From a phage, in NCBI GenBank assembly GCA_021469345.1, contig GCA_021469345.1_3049.1: 64,000 nt of DNA. The stretch is one strand, 5' to 3'. Numbering within the stretch: the stretch's first letter is position 1; every line of letters begins with the position of its first letter. Positions 1 to 49,698 of this stretch are shown here, in pieces. The notes under the pieces are model-generated. The model was given only the letters and a program-made list of their open reading frames with translations. It did no database searches and had not been told where the DNA came from. The position numbers and the translations under genes are program-made.

Positions 1-84
1 TCCGGTTATGCAGTTCGCTTTAACTCTCTGACTCCGGAACAGCAGCGCGACGTTATCGCTCGTACCTTTACCGAGAGTTTGTAA
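1..84 (+). CDS. hypothetical protein, 3' end only (vs-region ORF)
   Basis: Open frame enters from window edge (...TPEQQRDVIARTFTESL); stop TAA 82-84 overlaps next ATG. Confidence 0.4.
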   Translation, partial: SGYAVRFNSLTPEQQRDVIARTFTESL

Positions 85-305
85 TGGCAAAGATAATTAT
101 TGAAGGTTCTGAAGATGTGCTAAATGCTTTCGCCGAATGGTTTAGTAATTCAGGCGAACAGCAATTTAACGAAGCATGGAACATGGGTGATATTAATGGA
201 ATTTATCCTACTACAGAAATTTCTGTTCAGGGATATGGCATTCATGAACCTATTCGTTTAGTTGAATACGATTTATGTACTGGTGAGGAAGTCAAATATG
301 ATTGA
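84..305 (+). CDS. hypothetical small protein (vs region)
   Basis: 73-aa ORF, start overlaps upstream stop (TAATG), same strand as neighbours. Confidence 0.5.
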   Translation: MAKIIIEGSEDVLNAFAEWFSNSGEQQFNEAWNMGDINGIYPTTEISVQGYGIHEPIRLVEYDLCTGEEVKYD

Positions 306-564
306 AGATATTAAAGGTTATAAGCCACATACCGACGAAAAAATCGGTAAAGTAAATGCTATTAAAGACGCTGAAGTTCGTTTAGGACTTATCTTTGATG
401 CTTTATACGATGAATTTTGGGAAGCATTTGATAGCTGTGAAGATGATGAACTCGCGAAGAATTACGCCGAAAGCCTCGATCAGTTAACTATTGCTAAAAC
501 GAAACTCAAAGAAGCCAGTATGTGGGCTTGCCGTGCAGTGTTTCAACCAGAGGAAAAATACTAA
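298..564 (+). CDS. hypothetical small protein at the vs.4 position; possible Acb2-like sponge (hypothesis)
   Basis: 88-aa ORF from ATG 298 (ATGA overlap with upstream stop); position relative to regB. Confidence 0.5.
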
Positions 565-842
565 TGGCTCAATTAAGCGCAGGGTTTGGTTATGAGTATT
601 ATACTGCCCCTCGTCGTGTATCTGTTGCTCCTAAGAAAATTCAAAGTCTTGATGACTTCCAGGAAGTAGTTCGTAACGCTTTCCAGGACTATGCACGTTA
701 TCTTAAAGAAGATTCACAGGACTGTCTCGAAGAAGATGAAATTGCTTACTATGAGCAGCGTCTTGAACAGCTCAAAAATCTACATGAGGTTCGTGCAGAA
801 GTTTCAAAGTCTATGAATAAATTGATTAGATTTAAAGAATAA
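564..842 (+). CDS. hypothetical small protein (vs.3 position)
   Basis: 92-aa ORF from ATG 564 with TAATG overlap; precedes regB promoter. Confidence 0.5.
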
Positions 843-843
843 C

Positions 844-873
844 TGTTTACTTTTCCTCTTGACTGTGGTATAA
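844..873 (+). promoter_or_regulatory. early sigma70-type promoter (GTTTAC-N18-TGGTATAAT)
   Basis: GTTTAC 844-849, extended -10 TGgTATAAT 868-873, upstream of regB RBS. Confidence 0.6.
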
Positions 874-901
874 TTTTTCTATCAGTTAAGAGGAGAATAA
901 C

Positions 902-1363
902 ATGACTATCAATACAGAAGTTTTTATCCGTCGAAATAAGCTTCGTCGTCACTTTGAGTCGGAGTTTCGTCAAATTAACAATGAGATTCGTGAGGCATCA
1001 AAAGCAGCAGGGGTCTCATCGTTTCATCTAAAATATTCTCAACATCTTCTTGATCGCGCAATTCAACGGGAGATTGATGAGACATACGTTTTTGAATTAT
1101 TCCATAAAATAAAAGACCATGTTTTAGAAGTTAATGAATTCCTGAGTATGCCTCCGCGTCCTGACATTGACGAGGATTTTATTGATGGGGTTGAATATCG
1201 TCCTGGACGTTTAGAAATCACAGATGGAAATCTTTGGCTTGGATTTACAGTTTGTAAGCCTAATGAGAAGTTCAAAAACCCGTCACTTCAATGCAGGATG
1301 GCAATTATCAATAGTCGTCGTTTACCAGGAAAGGCTTCTAAAGCAGTAATTAAAACTCAATGA
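902..1363 (+). CDS. regB: RegB site-specific endoribonuclease
   Basis: 153 aa, MTINTEVFIRRNKLRRHF..., length and sequence match remembered T4 RegB; RBS AGAGGAG. Confidence 0.9.
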   Translation: MTINTEVFIRRNKLRRHFESEFRQINNEIREASKAAGVSSFHLKYSQHLLDRAIQREIDETYVFELFHKIKDHVLEVNEFLSMPPRPDIDEDFIDGVEYRPGRLEITDGNLWLGFTVCKPNEKFKNPSLQCRMAIINSRRLPGKASKAVIKTQ

Positions 1364-1370
1364 GGTAAGC

Positions 1371-1916
1371 ATGAGAAAAGCACTACTCGCTGGTCTATTG
1401 GCCATTTCAATGATGGCACATAGCTCCGAGCATACTTTCAGTAATGTCCAACTCGATAACATGCGTTACGCATATCAATTCGGGGAACAATTTTCTAAGG
1501 ATGGAAAATATAAAACACATAAAAATATCCACAAGAGCGGATTAGGTCATATAATGGCTGCTATTTTATGGCAAGAAAGCTCTGGCGGAGTTAATTTAAA
1601 ATCTAAACCAAAGCATCACGCTTATGGAATGTTCCAAAATTATTTGCCTACTATGCGAGCAAGAGTTAAGGAACTTGGTTATAATATGACCGATGCTGAA
1701 ATAAAAAGAATGTTGAATAAACGATCCAATTCAGCTTCCTGGGCGTACATTGAACTTTCTTATTGGTTAAATATACATAAGGGCGATATAAGAAAAGCAA
1801 TATCCTCTTATAATTCGGGATGGAATGTTAAAGCTGGTTCTAAATATGCTTCTGAAGTCCTAGAAAAGGCTAATTACCTTAAAAATAATAAACTTTTGGA
1901 AATAGTAAATGACTAA
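1371..1916 (+). CDS. secreted protein Vs.1-like, possible transglycosylase-like fold
   Basis: 181 aa, N-terminal signal peptide MRKALLAGLLAISMMAHS, WQESSGG motif. Confidence 0.65.
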   Translation: MRKALLAGLLAISMMAHSSEHTFSNVQLDNMRYAYQFGEQFSKDGKYKTHKNIHKSGLGHIMAAILWQESSGGVNLKSKPKHHAYGMFQNYLPTMRARVKELGYNMTDAEIKRMLNKRSNSASWAYIELSYWLNIHKGDIRKAISSYNSGWNVKAGSKYASEVLEKANYLKNNKLLEIVND

Positions 1917-2256
1917 AATTTTGGTTTTATGTATAGGATTAATTTCATTTTCTGCTTCTGCGTCAGCAGATACATCATATACTGAAATTAGAGAATATGT
2001 AAACCGCACTGCGGCAGATTATTGTGGGAAAAATAAAGCATGCCAAGCTGAATTTGCACAGAAATTAATATATGCATATAAAGACGGAGAAAGAGATAAA
2101 TCAAGCAGATACAAAAACGATACATTATTAAAACGATATGCTAAAAAGTGGAATACCTTAGAATGTTCAGTTGCGGAGGAGAAAGATAAAGCCGCTTGTC
2201 ATTCAATGGTTGACCGTTTGGTAGATTCTTATAATCGAGGATTGAGTACTAGATGA
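1909..2256 (+). CDS. vs: Vs-like protein (valyl-tRNA synthetase modifier position), secreted
   Basis: 115 aa with signal peptide; position between vs.1 and tk.4 as in T4. Confidence 0.55.
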   Translation: MTKILVLCIGLISFSASASADTSYTEIREYVNRTAADYCGKNKACQAEFAQKLIYAYKDGERDKSSRYKNDTLLKRYAKKWNTLECSVAEEKDKAACHSMVDRLVDSYNRGLSTR

Positions 2257-2732
2257 TTGTAAAATATATCAAGGGCGATATTGTCGCCCTCTTTCTTGAA
2301 GGTAATATTATTGCGCACGGGTGCAATTGTTTTCATACAATGGGCAGTGGTGTAGCTGGTCAATTAGCAAGAGCCTATCCCAAAATTTTAGAAATAGATA
2401 AAACCACTACCGAGTACGGTTCTCGTGATAAATTAGGCGATATGTCTATTGTTTTTAAACATAAACCTAATGGTTTTGGCATATGTTATAACTTGTATAC
2501 GCAATACGAACCAGGTCCTAATCTTGATTATGGTGCTTTAGTAAACTGCATGATAGAATTAAATCTACAGGCAGAAACCCTTTTGTTTAAACCAGTAATT
2601 TACATTCCACGCATAGGTTGTGGTATTGCTGGCGGCGATTGGGATAAGGTTTCTAAATTAATCGACATGTTTACTCCTGATATTGATTTAATAGTGGTGG
2701 ATTATGAAAGTACATTACCCACATCCGTTTGA
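2253..2732 (+). CDS. macro-domain protein (ADP-ribose binding/processing), tk.4-like
   Basis: 159 aa; HGCNCF...MGSGVAGQ resembles macrodomain core. Confidence 0.65.
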   Translation: MIVKYIKGDIVALFLEGNIIAHGCNCFHTMGSGVAGQLARAYPKILEIDKTTTEYGSRDKLGDMSIVFKHKPNGFGICYNLYTQYEPGPNLDYGALVNCMIELNLQAETLLFKPVIYIPRIGCGIAGGDWDKVSKLIDMFTPDIDLIVVDYESTLPTSV

Positions 2733-2916
2733 TCCTAAAAACAAAGTGGAAATTATTCGTCAATGGGAACGCATTTGCCGTACTAAATGCCCAATTAATA
2801 GTCCACATGATGTAGATAAAGACTACATTGGAACATTCGTTGAATATACCTTTATTGATAAGAAAGGTCGTAAACAACATGTAGAAGAATATTGCTTAAA
2901 GGTTACATGGTTATGA
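2704..2916 (+). CDS. hypothetical small protein (tk.3 position)
   Basis: 70-aa ORF, overlaps neighbours at both ends. Confidence 0.45.
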   Translation: MKVHYPHPFDPKNKVEIIRQWERICRTKCPINSPHDVDKDYIGTFVEYTFIDKKGRKQHVEEYCLKVTWL

Positions 2917-3119
2917 GCCAAACTAGTATTCTTAAAAATGCCCATTGTGAAAAGTGTAAGTGGCCGGTTGTTTTTGCTTTATGCAACGATGAAATGGCTT
3001 GTGATTTCGATTATTGGTGCTATTGTTCTAATAAAGGATGTATCAATCATAAAGGTGAAGGATTTTATTCGGGATTTTATCCTTATCCAGATTTCGTTAA
3101 AGAAGGTAAACCAAAATGA
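2913..3119 (+). CDS. Cys-rich small protein (tk.2 position)
   Basis: ATG 2913 with ATGA overlap; CEKCK...CDFDYWCYC...C cysteine clusters. Confidence 0.5.
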   Translation: MSQTSILKNAHCEKCKWPVVFALCNDEMACDFDYWCYCSNKGCINHKGEGFYSGFYPYPDFVKEGKPK

Positions 3120-3289
3120 ATAGTTTTGAGTTACAATACGAAGTGTTACGTGAGCTTGATAATTTAATTGAACTCGCTGTTAATAAAGGTTTTGCCATTG
3201 GAATCGGTCAAAAAGATACTGGTCATTTAACTATGGAAATATTTAAGCAAAAGCGAATTATTTTAAAACTCCTGGAAATTAATATATGA
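3116..3289 (+). CDS. hypothetical small protein (57 aa)
   Basis: ATG 3116 overlaps upstream stop (ATGA), stop overlaps next start; below ORF-track cutoff. Confidence 0.4.
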   Translation: MNSFELQYEVLRELDNLIELAVNKGFAIGIGQKDTGHLTMEIFKQKRIILKLLEINI

Positions 3290-3471
3290 GTCTGAGTAAA
3301 GAACAAAAAGATAAATTGTTTGAGCTTATCCATGAACTTCTAGATGAGCATACAGAAGCAAACACCTTTTATGATGAATACGGCCCGTTATCTCCCGAAC
3401 AGCAGGAAGAATTTGCTGATCGGTTTGATAAGAAAGAAAATGAATTAATAACTTATGTGAATACGCTTTAA
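3286..3471 (+). CDS. hypothetical small acidic protein
   Basis: 61-aa ORF immediately upstream of tk. Confidence 0.5.
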   Translation: MSLSKEQKDKLFELIHELLDEHTEANTFYDEYGPLSPEQQEEFADRFDKKENELITYVNTL

Positions 3472-3480
3472 GAAGGTGAT

Positions 3481-4062
3481 ATGGCGAGTTTAATTTTTAC
3501 TTATGCAGCAATGAATGCTGGAAAATCTGCTTCTCTTTTGACTGCCGCACATAATTATAAAGAACGTGGAATGAGTGTATTAGTTCTTAAACCCGCTATT
3601 GATACTCGCGATTCTGTCTGTGAAGTCGTTTCTCGCATTGGAATTAAGCAGGAAGCGAATATTATTACAGATGATATGGATATTTTCGAGTTCTATAAAT
3701 GGGCTGAAGCACAAAAAGATATTCATTGTGTATTTGTAGATGAAGCTCAGTTTTTAAAAACTGAACAAGTGCATCAATTGAGCCGAATTGTTGATACATA
3801 TAATGTTCCTGTTATGGCTTATGGATTAAGGACTGATTTCGCTGGAAAATTATTTGAAGGTTCTAAAGAACTTTTGGCGATTGCAGATAAACTTATTGAA
3901 CTAAAGGCAGTTTGTCATTGCGGTAAAAAAGCGATTATGACAGCTCGATTAATGGAAGATGGAACACCAGTTAAAGAAGGTAATCAAATCTGTATTGGTG
4001 ATGAAATTTATGTTTCTTTGTGTAGAAAACATTGGAATGAATTAACTAAAAAGCTCGGTTAG
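3481..4062 (+). CDS. tk: thymidine kinase
   Basis: 193 aa; P-loop NAGKSASLL; C-terminal CxxC pairs; matches remembered T4 Tk. Confidence 0.95.
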   Translation: MASLIFTYAAMNAGKSASLLTAAHNYKERGMSVLVLKPAIDTRDSVCEVVSRIGIKQEANIITDDMDIFEFYKWAEAQKDIHCVFVDEAQFLKTEQVHQLSRIVDTYNVPVMAYGLRTDFAGKLFEGSKELLAIADKLIELKAVCHCGKKAIMTARLMEDGTPVKEGNQICIGDEIYVSLCRKHWNELTKKLG

Positions 4063-4071
4063 TGCAAAAGT

Positions 4072-4079
4072 TATAAATA
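4072..4079 (+). promoter_or_regulatory. late promoter core TATAAATA
   Basis: Exact TATAAATA 26 nt upstream of ATG 4105. Confidence 0.5.
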
Positions 4080-4104
4080 GGTTTATCTAACTAAAGGGGT
4101 ATAT

Positions 4105-4269
4105 ATGCTACAATTAACTGAAAAGCAACTTCGCAATCTTACTGTGCTTCAATTAGATGAAATTCGTAGGGAAGTTGGAAATATCATTTCAGCTTTGCGT
4201 CGAGAAGTATCACTCAACCAATCTCCGGCAGACTATACTAGATTGCGAAATTTTGAAAAATTACCTTGA
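4105..4269 (+). CDS. hypothetical small protein (rI.1 position)
   Basis: 54-aa ORF downstream of late-promoter motif. Confidence 0.45.
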
Positions 4270-4330
4270 TAAAGTTAAGGCCGTGCATCGGCATAAAGTA
4301 AATACAGGACAAAAATGATAGGAGGCCTTT

Positions 4331-42136: not shown

Positions 42137-42769
42137 ATGATTTATTATATGCACAAAAATCCACCGTTTAAATACGGTAAATTTCCTGATGCACAATGTT
42201 ATAATATAACGCCTGATGAAAATAACCGTGGATATCTTATTGGCACAATTTTTGTAATTGTTAAAGATAACGAAATCGTTGCCTGGGCAGATTTTAAAGG
42301 TACAACACATGATGTTAATCCGGTGCCTTTCACATATTACAATATAATGGATTTGGCATATGATTATAATTGGTTTAATCATGACAATTTAGTTCATATT
42401 GAAGGCGTAGGATTTGACATCTCTTATTCTAGTTATTCGTTGTGCCCTATGAGCCGAGCTTATAAAGAGCCTGAATATTTTTCATTTCGTCGGCGTGTAG
42501 ACTTTAAACGCAGTACAGAGTATGTCGGTGGAATCTTTGTTAAAGATAATCGAATTACTCGCATTATTTATCCTTTGGGCTTTGGTCAAAAAGATATTGA
42601 TGTTGATTTAGACTTTACTGAAAACAGCATTAATCATATTGCTTCTGTGTATTTTGATATTGATCACAAAATTGTAATATGTGGATATGAATTACCATCC
42701 GAAAAACAGTCTAAAGTAAATGTTTCTATTGATGACCAAATTTTTAATGCTTTTATGAATAGAGGTTAA
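42137..42769 (+). CDS. hypothetical protein at the 61.2 position (AdfA-like, reported anti-DarTG factor)
   Basis: 210 aa from ATG 42137; positional correspondence only. Confidence 0.55.
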   Translation: MIYYMHKNPPFKYGKFPDAQCYNITPDENNRGYLIGTIFVIVKDNEIVAWADFKGTTHDVNPVPFTYYNIMDLAYDYNWFNHDNLVHIEGVGFDISYSSYSLCPMSRAYKEPEYFSFRRRVDFKRSTEYVGGIFVKDNRITRIIYPLGFGQKDIDVDLDFTENSINHIASVYFDIDHKIVICGYELPSEKQSKVNVSIDDQIFNAFMNRG

Positions 42770-48475: not shown

Positions 48476-49099
48476 ATGATTATTAATCTTGCAGATGTTG
48501 AACAGTTATCTATAAAAGCTGAAAGCGTTGATTTTCAATATGATATGTATAAAAAAGTCTGTGAAAAATTTACTGACTTTGAGCAATCTGTTCTTTGGCA
48601 ATGTATGGAAGCCAAAAAGAATGAAGCTCTTCATCGGCAATTGAATAAAATCATTAAAAAGCATTTAACTAAATCGCCTTATCAGTTATATCGTGGTATA
48701 TCAAAATCAACAGAAGAACTTATTAAAGATTTACAAGTTGGAGAAGTGTTTTCAACGAACAGAGTAGATTCATTTACTACTAGTTTGCACACAGCATGTG
48801 GTTTTTCTTATGTTGAATATTCCACTGAAATAATATTTCGCTTAAAAACTGATAAAGCTTTTAATTATTCTGACCATATCAGCGATATTATACTTTCTTC
48901 TCCTAATACTGAGTTCAAGTACACGTATGAAGATACTGATGGGCTAGATTCAGAGCGTACTGATAACTTAATGATGATTGTGCGTGAACAAGAATGGATG
49001 ATTCCAATTGGAAAGTATAAAATAACTTCTATTTCAAAAGAAAAATTACACGATTCATTTGGAACATTTAAAGTTTATGATATTGAGGTAGTTGAATGA
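48476..49099 (+). CDS. modB: ADP-ribosyltransferase ModB
   Basis: 207 aa; R (YRG), S-x-S and E (QEWMIP) catalytic triad pattern. Confidence 0.8.
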   Translation: MIINLADVEQLSIKAESVDFQYDMYKKVCEKFTDFEQSVLWQCMEAKKNEALHRQLNKIIKKHLTKSPYQLYRGISKSTEELIKDLQVGEVFSTNRVDSFTTSLHTACGFSYVEYSTEIIFRLKTDKAFNYSDHISDIILSSPNTEFKYTYEDTDGLDSERTDNLMMIVREQEWMIPIGKYKITSISKEKLHDSFGTFKVYDIEVVE

Positions 49100-49698
49100 A
49101 ATACTCAGTAATGCAACTAAAAGATTTTAAAATAAAATCAATGGATGCATCGGTGCGTGCTTCTATTCGTGAAGAATTACTTTCTGAAGGGTTTAATTTA
49201 TCTGAAATTGAACTTTTAATTCATTGTATTACTAATAAGCCAGATGACCATACTTGGTTAAATGAAATAATCAAATCTCGTTTGGTTCCAAACGATAAAC
49301 CTCTTTGGAGAGGTGTTCCAGCTGAGACTAAGCAGGTGTTAAATCAAGGAATTGATATTATTACATTTGATAAAGTCGTATCAGCTTCATATGATAAAAA
49401 TATAGCTCTACATTTTGCTTCCGGTTTAGAGTATAACACACAAGTTATTTTTGAATTCAAAGCTCCCATGGTATTCAATTTCCAGGAGTATGCTATAAAA
49501 GCTCTACGCTGTAAAGAATACAATCCAAACTTTAAGTTTCCGGATAGCCATCGTTATCGTAATATGGAATTAGTTTCAGATGAACAAGAAGTAATGATAC
49601 CAGCTGGAAGTGTATTTAGAATTGCAGATAGATATGAGTACAAAAAGTATTCAACATATACTATCTATACTCTTGATTTTGAAGGATTTAATCTATAA
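49096..49698 (+). CDS. modA: ADP-ribosyltransferase ModA
   Basis: 200 aa; LWRG, SAS, EQEVMIP motifs; paralog of modB. Confidence 0.8.
   Translation: MKYSVMQLKDFKIKSMDASVRASIREELLSEGFNLSEIELLIHCITNKPDDHTWLNEIIKSRLVPNDKPLWRGVPAETKQVLNQGIDIITFDKVVSASYDKNIALHFASGLEYNTQVIFEFKAPMVFNFQEYAIKALRCKEYNPNFKFPDSHRYRNMELVSDEQEVMIPAGSVFRIADRYEYKKYSTYTIYTLDFEGFNL

What the first reader, a model, noticed from the sequence alone, without database searches (positions are those of the whole stretch)
2253..2732. Macro-domain protein in the tk-vs region alongside phage ADP-ribosyltransferases
The 159-aa protein has a macrodomain-like core (HGCNCF...MGSGVAGQ), predicted to bind or hydrolyse ADP-ribose. The same window encodes ModB and ModA (48476-49698), which are ADP-ribosyltransferases. 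Host defences such as DarTG and NAD-depleting effectors also act through ADP-ribose chemistry, so this is a candidate reversal or scavenging enzyme.
Basis: partly seen in the sequence, partly recalled or inferred. Interest (0 to 1): 0.4.

Follow-up and report, generated by a model that had tools for sequence, protein, structure and literature searches.

The report
Phage T4 tk.4 (AdfM) macrodomain gene
This is the T4-family gene tk.4, a small ADP-ribose-removing (macrodomain) enzyme that in phage T4 has already been shown genetically to protect the phage from the bacterial DarTG2 defence, so the finding is real but essentially already known.

Summary
The ORF at 2253-2732 (+, 159 aa) is real and is a macrodomain. 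It scores 33.1 bits on Pfam Macro (cut-off 22). An alignment-based AlphaFold2 model has pLDDT 94, and its best PDB matches are TARG1, Poa1p, BT1257 and DarG.

By synteny (regB, vs.1, vs, this gene, tk.3 ... tk) and 58% identity it is the ortholog of T4 tk.4. That gene has been annotated as an A1pp/macro "phosphatase" since 2006. A November 2025 preprint named it adfM after showing that its knockout sensitises T4 to DarTG2.

The link to ModA/ModB, which lie 46 kb away, is not supported, and neither is NAD scavenging.

Two refinements come from this work:
- The protein is not DarG-type. Gln84, invariant in 118 homologs, sits where DarG has Lys80 and TARG1 has Lys84. This matches SCO6735, whose Gln85 is essential for removing ADP-ribose from thymidine in DNA. 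The protein also lacks DarG's C-terminal domain.
- The gene body is an island of 40-75% nucleotide identity to T4, between flanks that are 98-100% identical. This indicates allele replacement.

Enzymology of this allele remains untested. Interest is low.

The parts
2253..2732 (+). tk.4 / adfM ortholog: a 159-aa stand-alone macrodomain protein of the ALC1-like class
   Evidence: ORF. Pfam Macro 33.1 bits. 58% identical over 155 aa to T4 Tk.4. AF2 model pLDDT 94.2, pTM 0.89. Foldseek top PDB hits are TARG1, Poa1p, BT1257 and DarG, all with probability 1.00 and TM 0.67-0.77.
2316..2363 (+). First ADP-ribose-binding loop, residues H22-Q37 (HGCNCFHTMGSGVAGQ). It contains Asn25, which aligns with DarG N22 and PhiKZ AdfM N23, and the GxG motif G31-S-G33.
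   Evidence: H22, G23, N25, C26, G33 and A35 are invariant in 118 homologs. Column alignment with DarG, TARG1, SCO6735 and PhiKZ gp104. The PhiKZ AdfM N23A mutant has reduced activity (PMC13309987).
2502..2504 (+). Codon for Gln84, at the position of the catalytic Lys of DarG (K80), TARG1 (K84) and PhiKZ AdfM (K78), and of the essential Gln85 of SCO6735
   Evidence: MAFFT alignment A2. Q84 is invariant in 118 homologs. SCO6735 Q85A/E is inactive (PMC9411070).
2607..2642 (+). Second glycine-rich (diphosphate-binding) loop, residues P119-W130 (PRIGCGIAGGDW). Ala126 occupies the position of TARG1 Asp125.
   Evidence: P119 and W130 are invariant. I121, G122, G124, A126, G127 and G128 are conserved in at least 90% of homologs. 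Alignment with PRIGCGLAGG of BT1257 and SCO6735.
1909..2256 (+). vs (valyl-tRNA synthetase modifier), the upstream gene. Its stop codon overlaps the tk.4 start (ATGA), which indicates the same transcription unit.
   Evidence: PHROG 1256, 1.7e-39. 100% identical to T4 Vs. Sequence read.
2704..2916 (+). tk.3 (DUF7202), the downstream gene. It overlaps the 3' end of tk.4 by 29 nt in another frame.
   Evidence: Pfam DUF7202, 1.2e-37. 92.9% identical to T4 Tk.3.
846..874 (+). Sigma-70-type promoter-like site (TTTACT-17-TATAAT with extended TG) upstream of regB. It is the candidate early promoter for the regB-vs.1-vs-tk.4 unit.
   Evidence: Best consensus match in 1-4300 (10 of 12). The scan is not enriched over shuffles, so this is an inference only.

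Best explanation
The gene is the tk.4 (adfM) ortholog of a T4-like phage. It is an early-expressed, stand-alone macrodomain that acts as an orphan antitoxin against the host DarTG2 defence. DarT2 puts ADP-ribose on thymidines of single-stranded phage DNA and so blocks replication. This enzyme binds the ADP-ribose in its two glycine-rich loops and hydrolyses the thymine-ribose bond, restoring clean DNA. The active site is not DarG-like. Instead of the catalytic lysine it has an invariant glutamine (Gln84). I therefore predict a lysine-independent mechanism like that proposed for Streptomyces SCO6735, in which water is the proton donor and the Gln positions the substrate. What is shown: the fold, the conserved residues, the orthology, and the genetic phenotype of the T4 allele (from the literature). 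What is inferred: activity of this 58%-identical allele, the DNA-thymidine substrate, the mechanism, and the early timing of expression.
For: Macrodomain membership: Pfam Macro; AF2 pLDDT 94.2; Foldseek top hits TARG1, Poa1p, BT1257 and DarG, all probability 1.00. Orthology to T4 tk.4: 58% identity over the full length in identical synteny, with regB, vs.1, vs and tk at 99-100% identity. Function of the T4 allele: tk.4 was the single significant transposon hit under DarTG2, and a clean knockout sensitised T4 to DarTG2 (bioRxiv 10.1101/2025.11.20.689424). Active site: N25, Q84 and both Gly loops are invariant or nearly so in 118 homologs that include T4-type alleles. Q84 aligns with SCO6735 Q85 and with DarG K80 and TARG1 K84. 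SCO6735 removes DarT-made thymidine ADP-ribose, rescues cells from DarT, and is dead as Q85A (PMC9411070). That paper describes thymidine de-ADP-ribosylation as a unifying activity of the ALC1-like class. An unrelated phage macrodomain, PhiKZ gp104, hydrolyses T-ADPr ssDNA in vitro and counters DarTG2 (PMC13309987). The only PADLOC family hit is DarG, at 27.7 bits.
Against: No biochemistry exists for T4 Tk.4 or for this allele; the preprint itself says enzymatic removal only 'seems likely'. This allele is only 58% identical to the tested one. The SCO6735 features linked to high DNA activity are absent: the extended mobile loop with Lys89/Lys93 and Lys34. The loop here is about 5-6 residues shorter, and Ser32 replaces Lys34. 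The shared His22-x-Cys-Asn-Cys motif also matches Poa1p (HSCNC), an ADP-ribose-1''-phosphate phosphatase. A catalytically dead SCO6735 still inhibits DarT by binding it, so protection need not be purely enzymatic.
Confidence: 0.7

Rival explanations
1. The protein neutralises DarT2 mainly by binding the toxin (stoichiometric inhibition) rather than by hydrolysing ADP-ribosylated DNA.
For: Catalytically inactive SCO6735 Q85A, DarG K80A and TARG1 K84A all inhibit DarT in vitro, and SCO6735 does so most strongly (PMC9411070). The sharp allele replacement at this locus would fit co-evolution with toxin variants.
Against: The protein lacks DarG's C-terminal DarT-binding domain; only positions 2-142 of the 338-position DarG profile are matched. 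The strictly conserved residues are those lining the ADP-ribose pocket, which points to selection on ligand chemistry. PhiKZ AdfM needs its active-site Asn.
Confidence: 0.1
2. It processes a soluble ADP-ribose derivative, such as ADP-ribose-1''-phosphate (as Poa1p does), O-acetyl-ADP-ribose, or a TIR-made immune signal. Anti-DarTG2 activity would then be secondary or specific to the T4 allele.
For: Current database labels are 'phosphatase' (PHROG 335; RefSeq T4 note 'A1pp phosphatase motif'). Poa1p is among the best sequence and structure matches and shares the H-x-C-N-C motif. [quoted passage not shown]
Against: The only phenotype on record for the ortholog is against DarTG2, a DNA-modifying system. 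Neither the window nor, to my knowledge, T4 biology contains a pathway that generates ADPr-1''-phosphate. The Poa1p match is split into two pieces (3-79 and 116-148), with a divergent middle.
Confidence: 0.12
3. It reverses or limits the phage's own protein ADP-ribosylation or RNAylation by Alt, ModA and ModB.
For: ModB and ModA are encoded in the same window. SCO6735 and TARG1 also act on protein substrates.
Against: The genes are 46 kb apart and not co-transcribed. From my own knowledge, Alt, ModA and ModB modify arginine, a linkage not known to be cleaved by TARG1/DarG-class macrodomains. The T4 screen gave tk.4 a phenotype only under DarTG2. No paper linking tk.4 to Mod proteins was found.
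Confidence: 0.03
4. It removes ADP-ribose from RNA, countering RNA-targeting transferases such as CmdT.
For: RNA ADP-ribosylation defences and macrodomain reversers exist (PMC11833690 and PMC11618068, listed).
Against: CmdTAC gives robust defence against T-even phages, which carry tk.4 (abstract of PMC11618068). tk.4 therefore does not neutralise that system.
Confidence: 0.05

Closest known systems
T4 Tk.4 = AdfM (anti-DarT factor Macrodomain), bioRxiv 10.1101/2025.11.20.689424
   Same: Same locus between vs and tk.3. Same length class (159 vs 155 aa). 58% identity over the full length. Same invariant residues (H22, N25, Q84 and both Gly loops).
   Different: It is a divergent allele: 40-75% nucleotide identity inside the gene against 98-100% in the flanks. 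It has four extra C-terminal residues and a 29-nt overlap with tk.3. This allele has not been tested against DarTG2.
Streptomyces coelicolor SCO6735 and Bacteroides BT1257 (Gln-type ALC1-like macrodomains; PDB 5E3B, 2FG1)
   Same: Best PDB sequence matches (2e-10 and 9e-8). Gln at the DarG/TARG1 catalytic-Lys position. PRIGCG(L/I)AGG loop with Ala at the TARG1 Asp125 position. Stand-alone protein with no toxin partner.
   Different: About 26% identity. The mobile loop after the Gln is about 5-6 residues shorter and lacks Lys89/Lys93. Ser32 replaces Lys34.
DarG antitoxin macrodomain (T. aquaticus 5M31/5M3E, M. tuberculosis 5M3I)
   Same: Same fold (TM 0.71-0.76). Asn25 equals DarG N22. Presumably the same substrate (DarT2-modified thymidine).
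   Different: Gln replaces the catalytic Lys80. There is no C-terminal DarT-binding domain and no adjacent darT. The DarG profile score is 27.8 bits against a cut-off of 250.
Chimallivirus AdfM (PhiKZ gp104), Cell Rep 2026, PMC13309987
   Same: A phage-encoded stand-alone macrodomain that counters DarTG2, with the same published name.
   Different: It belongs to a different lineage. PhiKZ gp104 is DarG-type (9e-25 to 5M3I, 133 bits on the DarG HMM, Lys78 present). It shares only a 23-bit local match with the window protein. It is expressed late and imported into the phage nucleus.
Human TARG1/OARD1 and yeast Poa1p
   Same: Top structural matches. Shared His22 and PRIGCG loop. Poa1p shares the H-x-C-N-C motif.
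   Different: The TARG1 Lys84/Asp125 dyad is replaced by Gln84/Ala126. The Poa1p match is partial in sequence.

Membership tests
Macro domain superfamily (Pfam PF01661) | Profile score above the curated gathering threshold across the whole domain | tested here: met
   33.1 bits against a cut-off of 22; profile positions 2-117 of 118.
Macro domain superfamily (Pfam PF01661) | Three-layer alpha/beta/alpha macro fold | tested here: met
   AF2 model pLDDT 94.2, pTM 0.89. In the Foldseek PDB search, 171 matches had E<=0.001. The 50 listed are macrodomains or designed proteins that matched the query's macrodomain alignment, led by TARG1, Poa1p, BT1257 and DarG with TM 0.67-0.77.
Macro domain superfamily (Pfam PF01661) | GxG motif after the second strand, plus a second glycine-rich diphosphate-binding loop | tested here: met
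   G31-S-G33 and G122-C-G124-I-A-G127-G128 are invariant or at least 90% conserved in 118 homologs.
T4 Tk.4 / AdfM orthologous group | Syntenic position between vs and tk.3, with full-length similarity to T4 Tk.4 | tested here: met
   58% identity over 155 of 155 aa. Neighbours vs at 100% and tk.3 at 93% identity. T4 annotation.
T4 Tk.4 / AdfM orthologous group | Required for growth on a DarTG2-expressing host | not testable with these tools
   Shown only for the T4 allele.
DarG antitoxin (NCBIfam NF048014) | Catalytic lysine (T. aquaticus K80) | tested here: not met
   Gln84 occupies that column and is invariant in the family.
DarG antitoxin (NCBIfam NF048014) | C-terminal DarT-binding domain and a score above the equivalog cut-off | tested here: not met
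   27.8 bits against a cut-off of 250. Only profile positions 2-142 of 338 are matched, and the protein ends at residue 159.
DarG antitoxin (NCBIfam NF048014) | Encoded next to a darT toxin gene | tested here: not met
   The neighbours are vs and tk.3. A bacterial homolog (P0095) also has no DarT neighbour.
SCO6735/BT1257 subclass of ALC1-like macrodomains | Glutamine in place of the DarG/TARG1 catalytic lysine, and Ala in place of TARG1 Asp125 | tested here: met
   Q84 and A126 align with SCO6735 Q85 and A130 (residue numbering checked against PMC9411070).
SCO6735/BT1257 subclass of ALC1-like macrodomains | Extended lysine-bearing mobile loop after the Gln, and Lys34 in loop 1 | tested here: not met
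   The loop is about 5-6 residues shorter and has no Lys. Ser32 sits at the Lys34 column.
SCO6735/BT1257 subclass of ALC1-like macrodomains | Hydrolysis of thymidine-linked ADP-ribose on ssDNA | not testable with these tools
   Needs an in vitro assay.
TARG1 (OARD1) | Lys84/Asp125 catalytic dyad | tested here: not met
   Gln84 and Ala126 occupy those columns.

The most novel reading that the evidence does not exclude
T-even AdfM (Tk.4) proteins form a lysine-less, Gln-type lineage of anti-DarT2 macrodomains. This lineage is independent of the DarG-type AdfM of jumbo phages. Phages would swap whole alleles by recombination at the conserved gene ends, because different alleles match different DarT2 variants or extend to other ADP-ribosylated substrates. 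If so, the locus would be a natural panel for mapping what sets nucleic-acid de-ADP-ribosylase specificity.
Probability: 0.3. Interest if true: 0.45.

Novelty: already known. Interest (0 to 1): 0.22.

Why it matters
The finding confirms that T-even phages carry a dedicated eraser of DNA ADP-ribosylation next to their nucleotide-metabolism genes. T4 has two other anti-DarT factors, both described in the literature (PMC11825919): AdfA (gene 61.2), whose ortholog lies in this window at 42137-42766, and AdfN (gene 30.3), which was not located here.

The practical value is small but concrete:
- Databases still label this gene 'phosphatase' or 'hypothetical', and that label could be updated.
- The Gln-for-Lys active site gives a directly testable mechanistic prediction: Q84A should be dead, with an SCO6735-like lysine-independent chemistry.
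- The sharp allele replacement marks the locus as a place where phage and defence are co-evolving.

Tried and rejected
- Single-sequence AlphaFold2 gave an unusable model (pLDDT 37). It was replaced by an alignment-based run.
- Pfam has no model for ModA/ModB. PHROGs and direct comparison with T4 were used instead.
- phmmer with only the C-terminal 98 residues did not align the Gln region to SCO6735. I recovered the BT1257, SCO6735 and DarG sequences from printed alignments and aligned them with MAFFT.
- I considered filing the protein as a DarG homolog, as the preprint describes it. I rejected membership because the catalytic Lys, the C-terminal domain, the toxin neighbour and the profile cut-off all fail.
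- I considered a functional pairing with ModA/ModB and rejected it because of distance, linkage chemistry and the lack of any literature support.
- The promoter and terminator scan around the gene was not enriched over shuffles, so expression timing rests on synteny with T4 early genes only.
- Literature searches for biochemical work on Tk.4 found none.

Full report
**Observation.** The window is a T4-like (Tequatrovirus) genome segment. A 2.8-kb stretch around the finding is 98-99% identical to many Escherichia and Shigella T4-like phages. The + strand corresponds to the T4 early transcription direction.

An ATG-to-stop ORF occupies exactly 2253-2732 and encodes 159 aa with the quoted motifs HGCNCF and MGSGVAGQ. 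It matches Pfam Macro at 33.1 bits (cut-off 22) over essentially the whole profile. It matches PHROG 335 at 1.6e-71. At sequence level it also matches solved macrodomains: BT1257, Poa1p, SCO6735, M. tuberculosis DarG and TARG1.

**Fold.** A single-sequence AlphaFold2 run failed (pLDDT 37). With an alignment of 118 homologs (alignment A1), the model reached pLDDT 94.2 and pTM 0.89. Foldseek against the PDB returned macrodomains. The top ranks were all ALC1-like class members: TARG1, Poa1p, BT1257, and T. aquaticus and M. tuberculosis DarG, with TM 0.67-0.77 and probability 1.00. Against viral models it hit tk.4-type and other phage macro proteins.

**Identity of the gene.** The gene order is regB (902-1363), vs.1 (1371-1916), vs (1909-2256), this ORF, tk.3 (2704-2916)... 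tk (3481-4062). This is the T4 order regB-vs.1-vs-tk.4-tk.3-...-tk. The protein is 58% identical to T4 Tk.4 over all 155 residues.

The macro domain of tk.4 is not new:
- It was reported in 2006 under its older name, A1pp (PMC1524935).
- RefSeq calls T4 tk.4 'phosphatase; contains A1pp phosphatase motif'.
- 2,774 phage records encode a relative, variously labelled phosphatase, macro domain protein or hypothetical.
- A 2022 survey already noted that about 41% of myoviruses carry a macro domain (PMC9503650).

**Function known from the literature.** A transposon-sequencing preprint (bioRxiv 10.1101/2025.11.20.689424, November 2025) found tk.4 to be the single T4 gene depleted on a DarTG2-expressing host. 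It showed that a clean knockout becomes DarTG2-sensitive, and it renamed the gene adfM. Enzymatic removal of ADP-ribose from DNA was described only as likely, on the basis of structural similarity to M. tuberculosis DarG.

Independently, a jumbo-phage macrodomain was also named AdfM. This protein, PhiKZ gp104, removes ADP-ribose from a DarT2-modified oligonucleotide in vitro and protects against DarTG2 (PMC13309987). I found no biochemical study of Tk.4 itself.

**What this analysis adds, part 1: the active-site type.** I recovered the sequences of BT1257, SCO6735 and the two DarG macrodomains from printed alignments. I aligned them with the window protein, T4 Tk.4, TARG1 and PhiKZ gp104.
- Asn25 aligns with DarG N22 and PhiKZ N23.
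- The catalytic lysine column (DarG K80, TARG1 K84, PhiKZ K78) holds Gln84 in both the window protein and T4 Tk.4.
- TARG1 Asp125 aligns with Ala126.
- This is the arrangement of SCO6735 (Gln85, Ala130) and BT1257.

SCO6735 efficiently reverses DarT-made thymidine ADP-ribosylation and rescues cells from DarT. It is inactivated by Q85A/E, and its authors propose a water-mediated, lysine-independent mechanism (PMC9411070).

Gln84 is invariant across 118 homologs spanning 38-96% identity, together with H22, G23, N25, C26, G33, A35, D49, N80, Y82, P119 and W130.

By profile score the T-even proteins are only distant relatives of DarG. On PADLOC DarG the window protein scores 27.7 bits and T4 Tk.4 scores 36 bits. 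On NCBIfam DarG the window protein scores 27.8 bits against a cut-off of 250. PhiKZ gp104 scores 133-138 bits and matches M. tuberculosis DarG at 9e-25. The window protein and PhiKZ gp104 share only a 23-bit local match.

The two 'AdfM' proteins are therefore separate recruitments of ALC1-like macrodomains, one Gln-type and one Lys-type. The window protein does not carry the other SCO6735 specialisations. Its mobile loop is about 5-6 residues shorter and lacks the lysines, and Ser32 replaces Lys34. It is SCO6735-like in chemistry but not a close family member. A bacterial homolog (P0095, 40% identity) is a stand-alone gene with no DarT neighbour.

**What this analysis adds, part 2: allele replacement.** Compared with T4, the flanking proteins RegB, Vs.1, Vs and Tk are 99-100% identical and Tk.3 is 93% identical, but Tk.4 is 58% identical.

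In 60-nt windows, nucleotide identity is 97-100% up to position 2288. It falls to 37-75% between about 2290 and 2750, then returns to 95-100% from 2756 to 2905. A gene-sized block that divergent, between nearly identical flanks, indicates exchange of a whole allele by recombination rather than local fast evolution.

Both allele types are common. 272 phage records carry a protein at least 95% identical to this one, and many other Tequatroviruses carry the T4 type. The ortholog of the anti-DarT1 factor AdfA (gene 61.2; window 42137-42766) is likewise more divergent (80%) than its neighbours (95-98.5%).

**Mechanism proposed.** The vs stop codon overlaps the tk.4 start (ATGA), and tk.3 overlaps the tk.4 end. 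Together with the T4 synteny, this suggests co-transcription in the regB-tk early unit. The only good promoter-like site is upstream of regB at 846-874, and it is consensus-level evidence only.

The protein is then available when replication exposes single-stranded DNA. DarT2 ADP-ribosylates thymidine in ssDNA. The macrodomain binds the ADP-ribose through loops 22-37 and 119-130. With Asn25 and Gln84 positioning the distal ribose, it hydrolyses the N-glycosidic bond.

The fold, the residues, the orthology and the T4 genetics are shown. The substrate, the chemistry and the activity of this allele are inferred. My confidence is about 0.7.

**Rivals.**
- Toxin binding without catalysis is possible, because dead SCO6735 still inhibits DarT. 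However, the conserved residues line the ligand pocket, and the DarG toxin-binding domain is absent.
- A small-molecule role (ADPr-1''-phosphate, OAADPr or TIR signals) underlies the database label 'phosphatase'. It is compatible with the Poa1p-like H-x-C-N-C motif, but it has no phenotypic support.
- Reversal of ModA/ModB/Alt modification is unlikely. The genes are 46 kb apart. From my own knowledge, these transferases modify arginine, a linkage handled by ARH-type enzymes rather than by this macrodomain class. The T4 screen showed a tk.4 phenotype only under DarTG2.
- Reversal of CmdT-type RNA modification is unlikely, because T-even phages remain sensitive to CmdTAC (abstract of PMC11618068).

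**Verdict.** However, the domain has been annotated for two decades, and the anti-DarTG2 role of the T4 ortholog was reported in 2025. The ModA/ModB association is coincidental. The residual novelty is modest: the lysine-less active site, the distinction from the PhiKZ protein of the same name, and the allele swap. Interest is 0.22, and novelty is 'already known'.

Noticed in passing
window 2290-2750 (flanks 1900-2288 and 2756-2905): The tk.4 gene body is an island of 37-75% nucleotide identity to T4 between flanks that are 95-100% identical. This indicates whole-allele replacement by recombination at the conserved gene ends.
   Followed up: partly
window 2272-2290: A perfect 8-bp inverted repeat (AGGGCGATATTGTCGCCCT) followed by a T-rich run lies inside codons 7-13 of tk.4. 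It sits exactly at the left boundary where identity to T4 collapses. It scores as terminator-like on both strands, and its significance is unknown.
   Followed up: no
window 2906-3471: The region where T4 has tk.2 and tk.1 holds three small ORFs instead (2892-3119, 3116-3289, 3286-3471). Only the last resembles T4 Tk.2, at 54% identity. This is a second replaced block next to tk.4.
   Followed up: no
window 42137-42766: This is the ortholog of T4 gene 61.2 (AdfA, an anti-DarT1 factor). It is 80% identical to T4, whereas its neighbours sp, 61.1 and 61 are 95-98.5% identical. A second anti-DarT gene in the window is thus also unusually divergent.
   Followed up: partly
window 4105-4318: The T4 rI.1 protein (70 aa) matches in two pieces: 100% over 52 aa at 4105-4260, then 66% over 35 aa at 4220-4315. 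The mechanical ORF list shows two overlapping ORFs there (4105-4269 and 4157-4318). This may be a frameshift or a variant C-terminus of rI.1.
   Followed up: no
literature; L002 12518-13006 (PhiKZ gp104) vs window 2253-2732: The name AdfM is used for two different proteins. T4 Tk.4 is Gln-type and scores 36 bits on the DarG HMM. PhiKZ gp104 is Lys-type and scores 133 bits. They are barely alignable to each other.
   Followed up: yes
window 1371-1916: The vs.1 ortholog (100% identical to T4) has an N-terminal hydrophobic, signal-like segment and an SLT lytic transglycosylase domain (Pfam, 25.1 bits). In RefSeq T4 it is annotated only as hypothetical.
   Followed up: no
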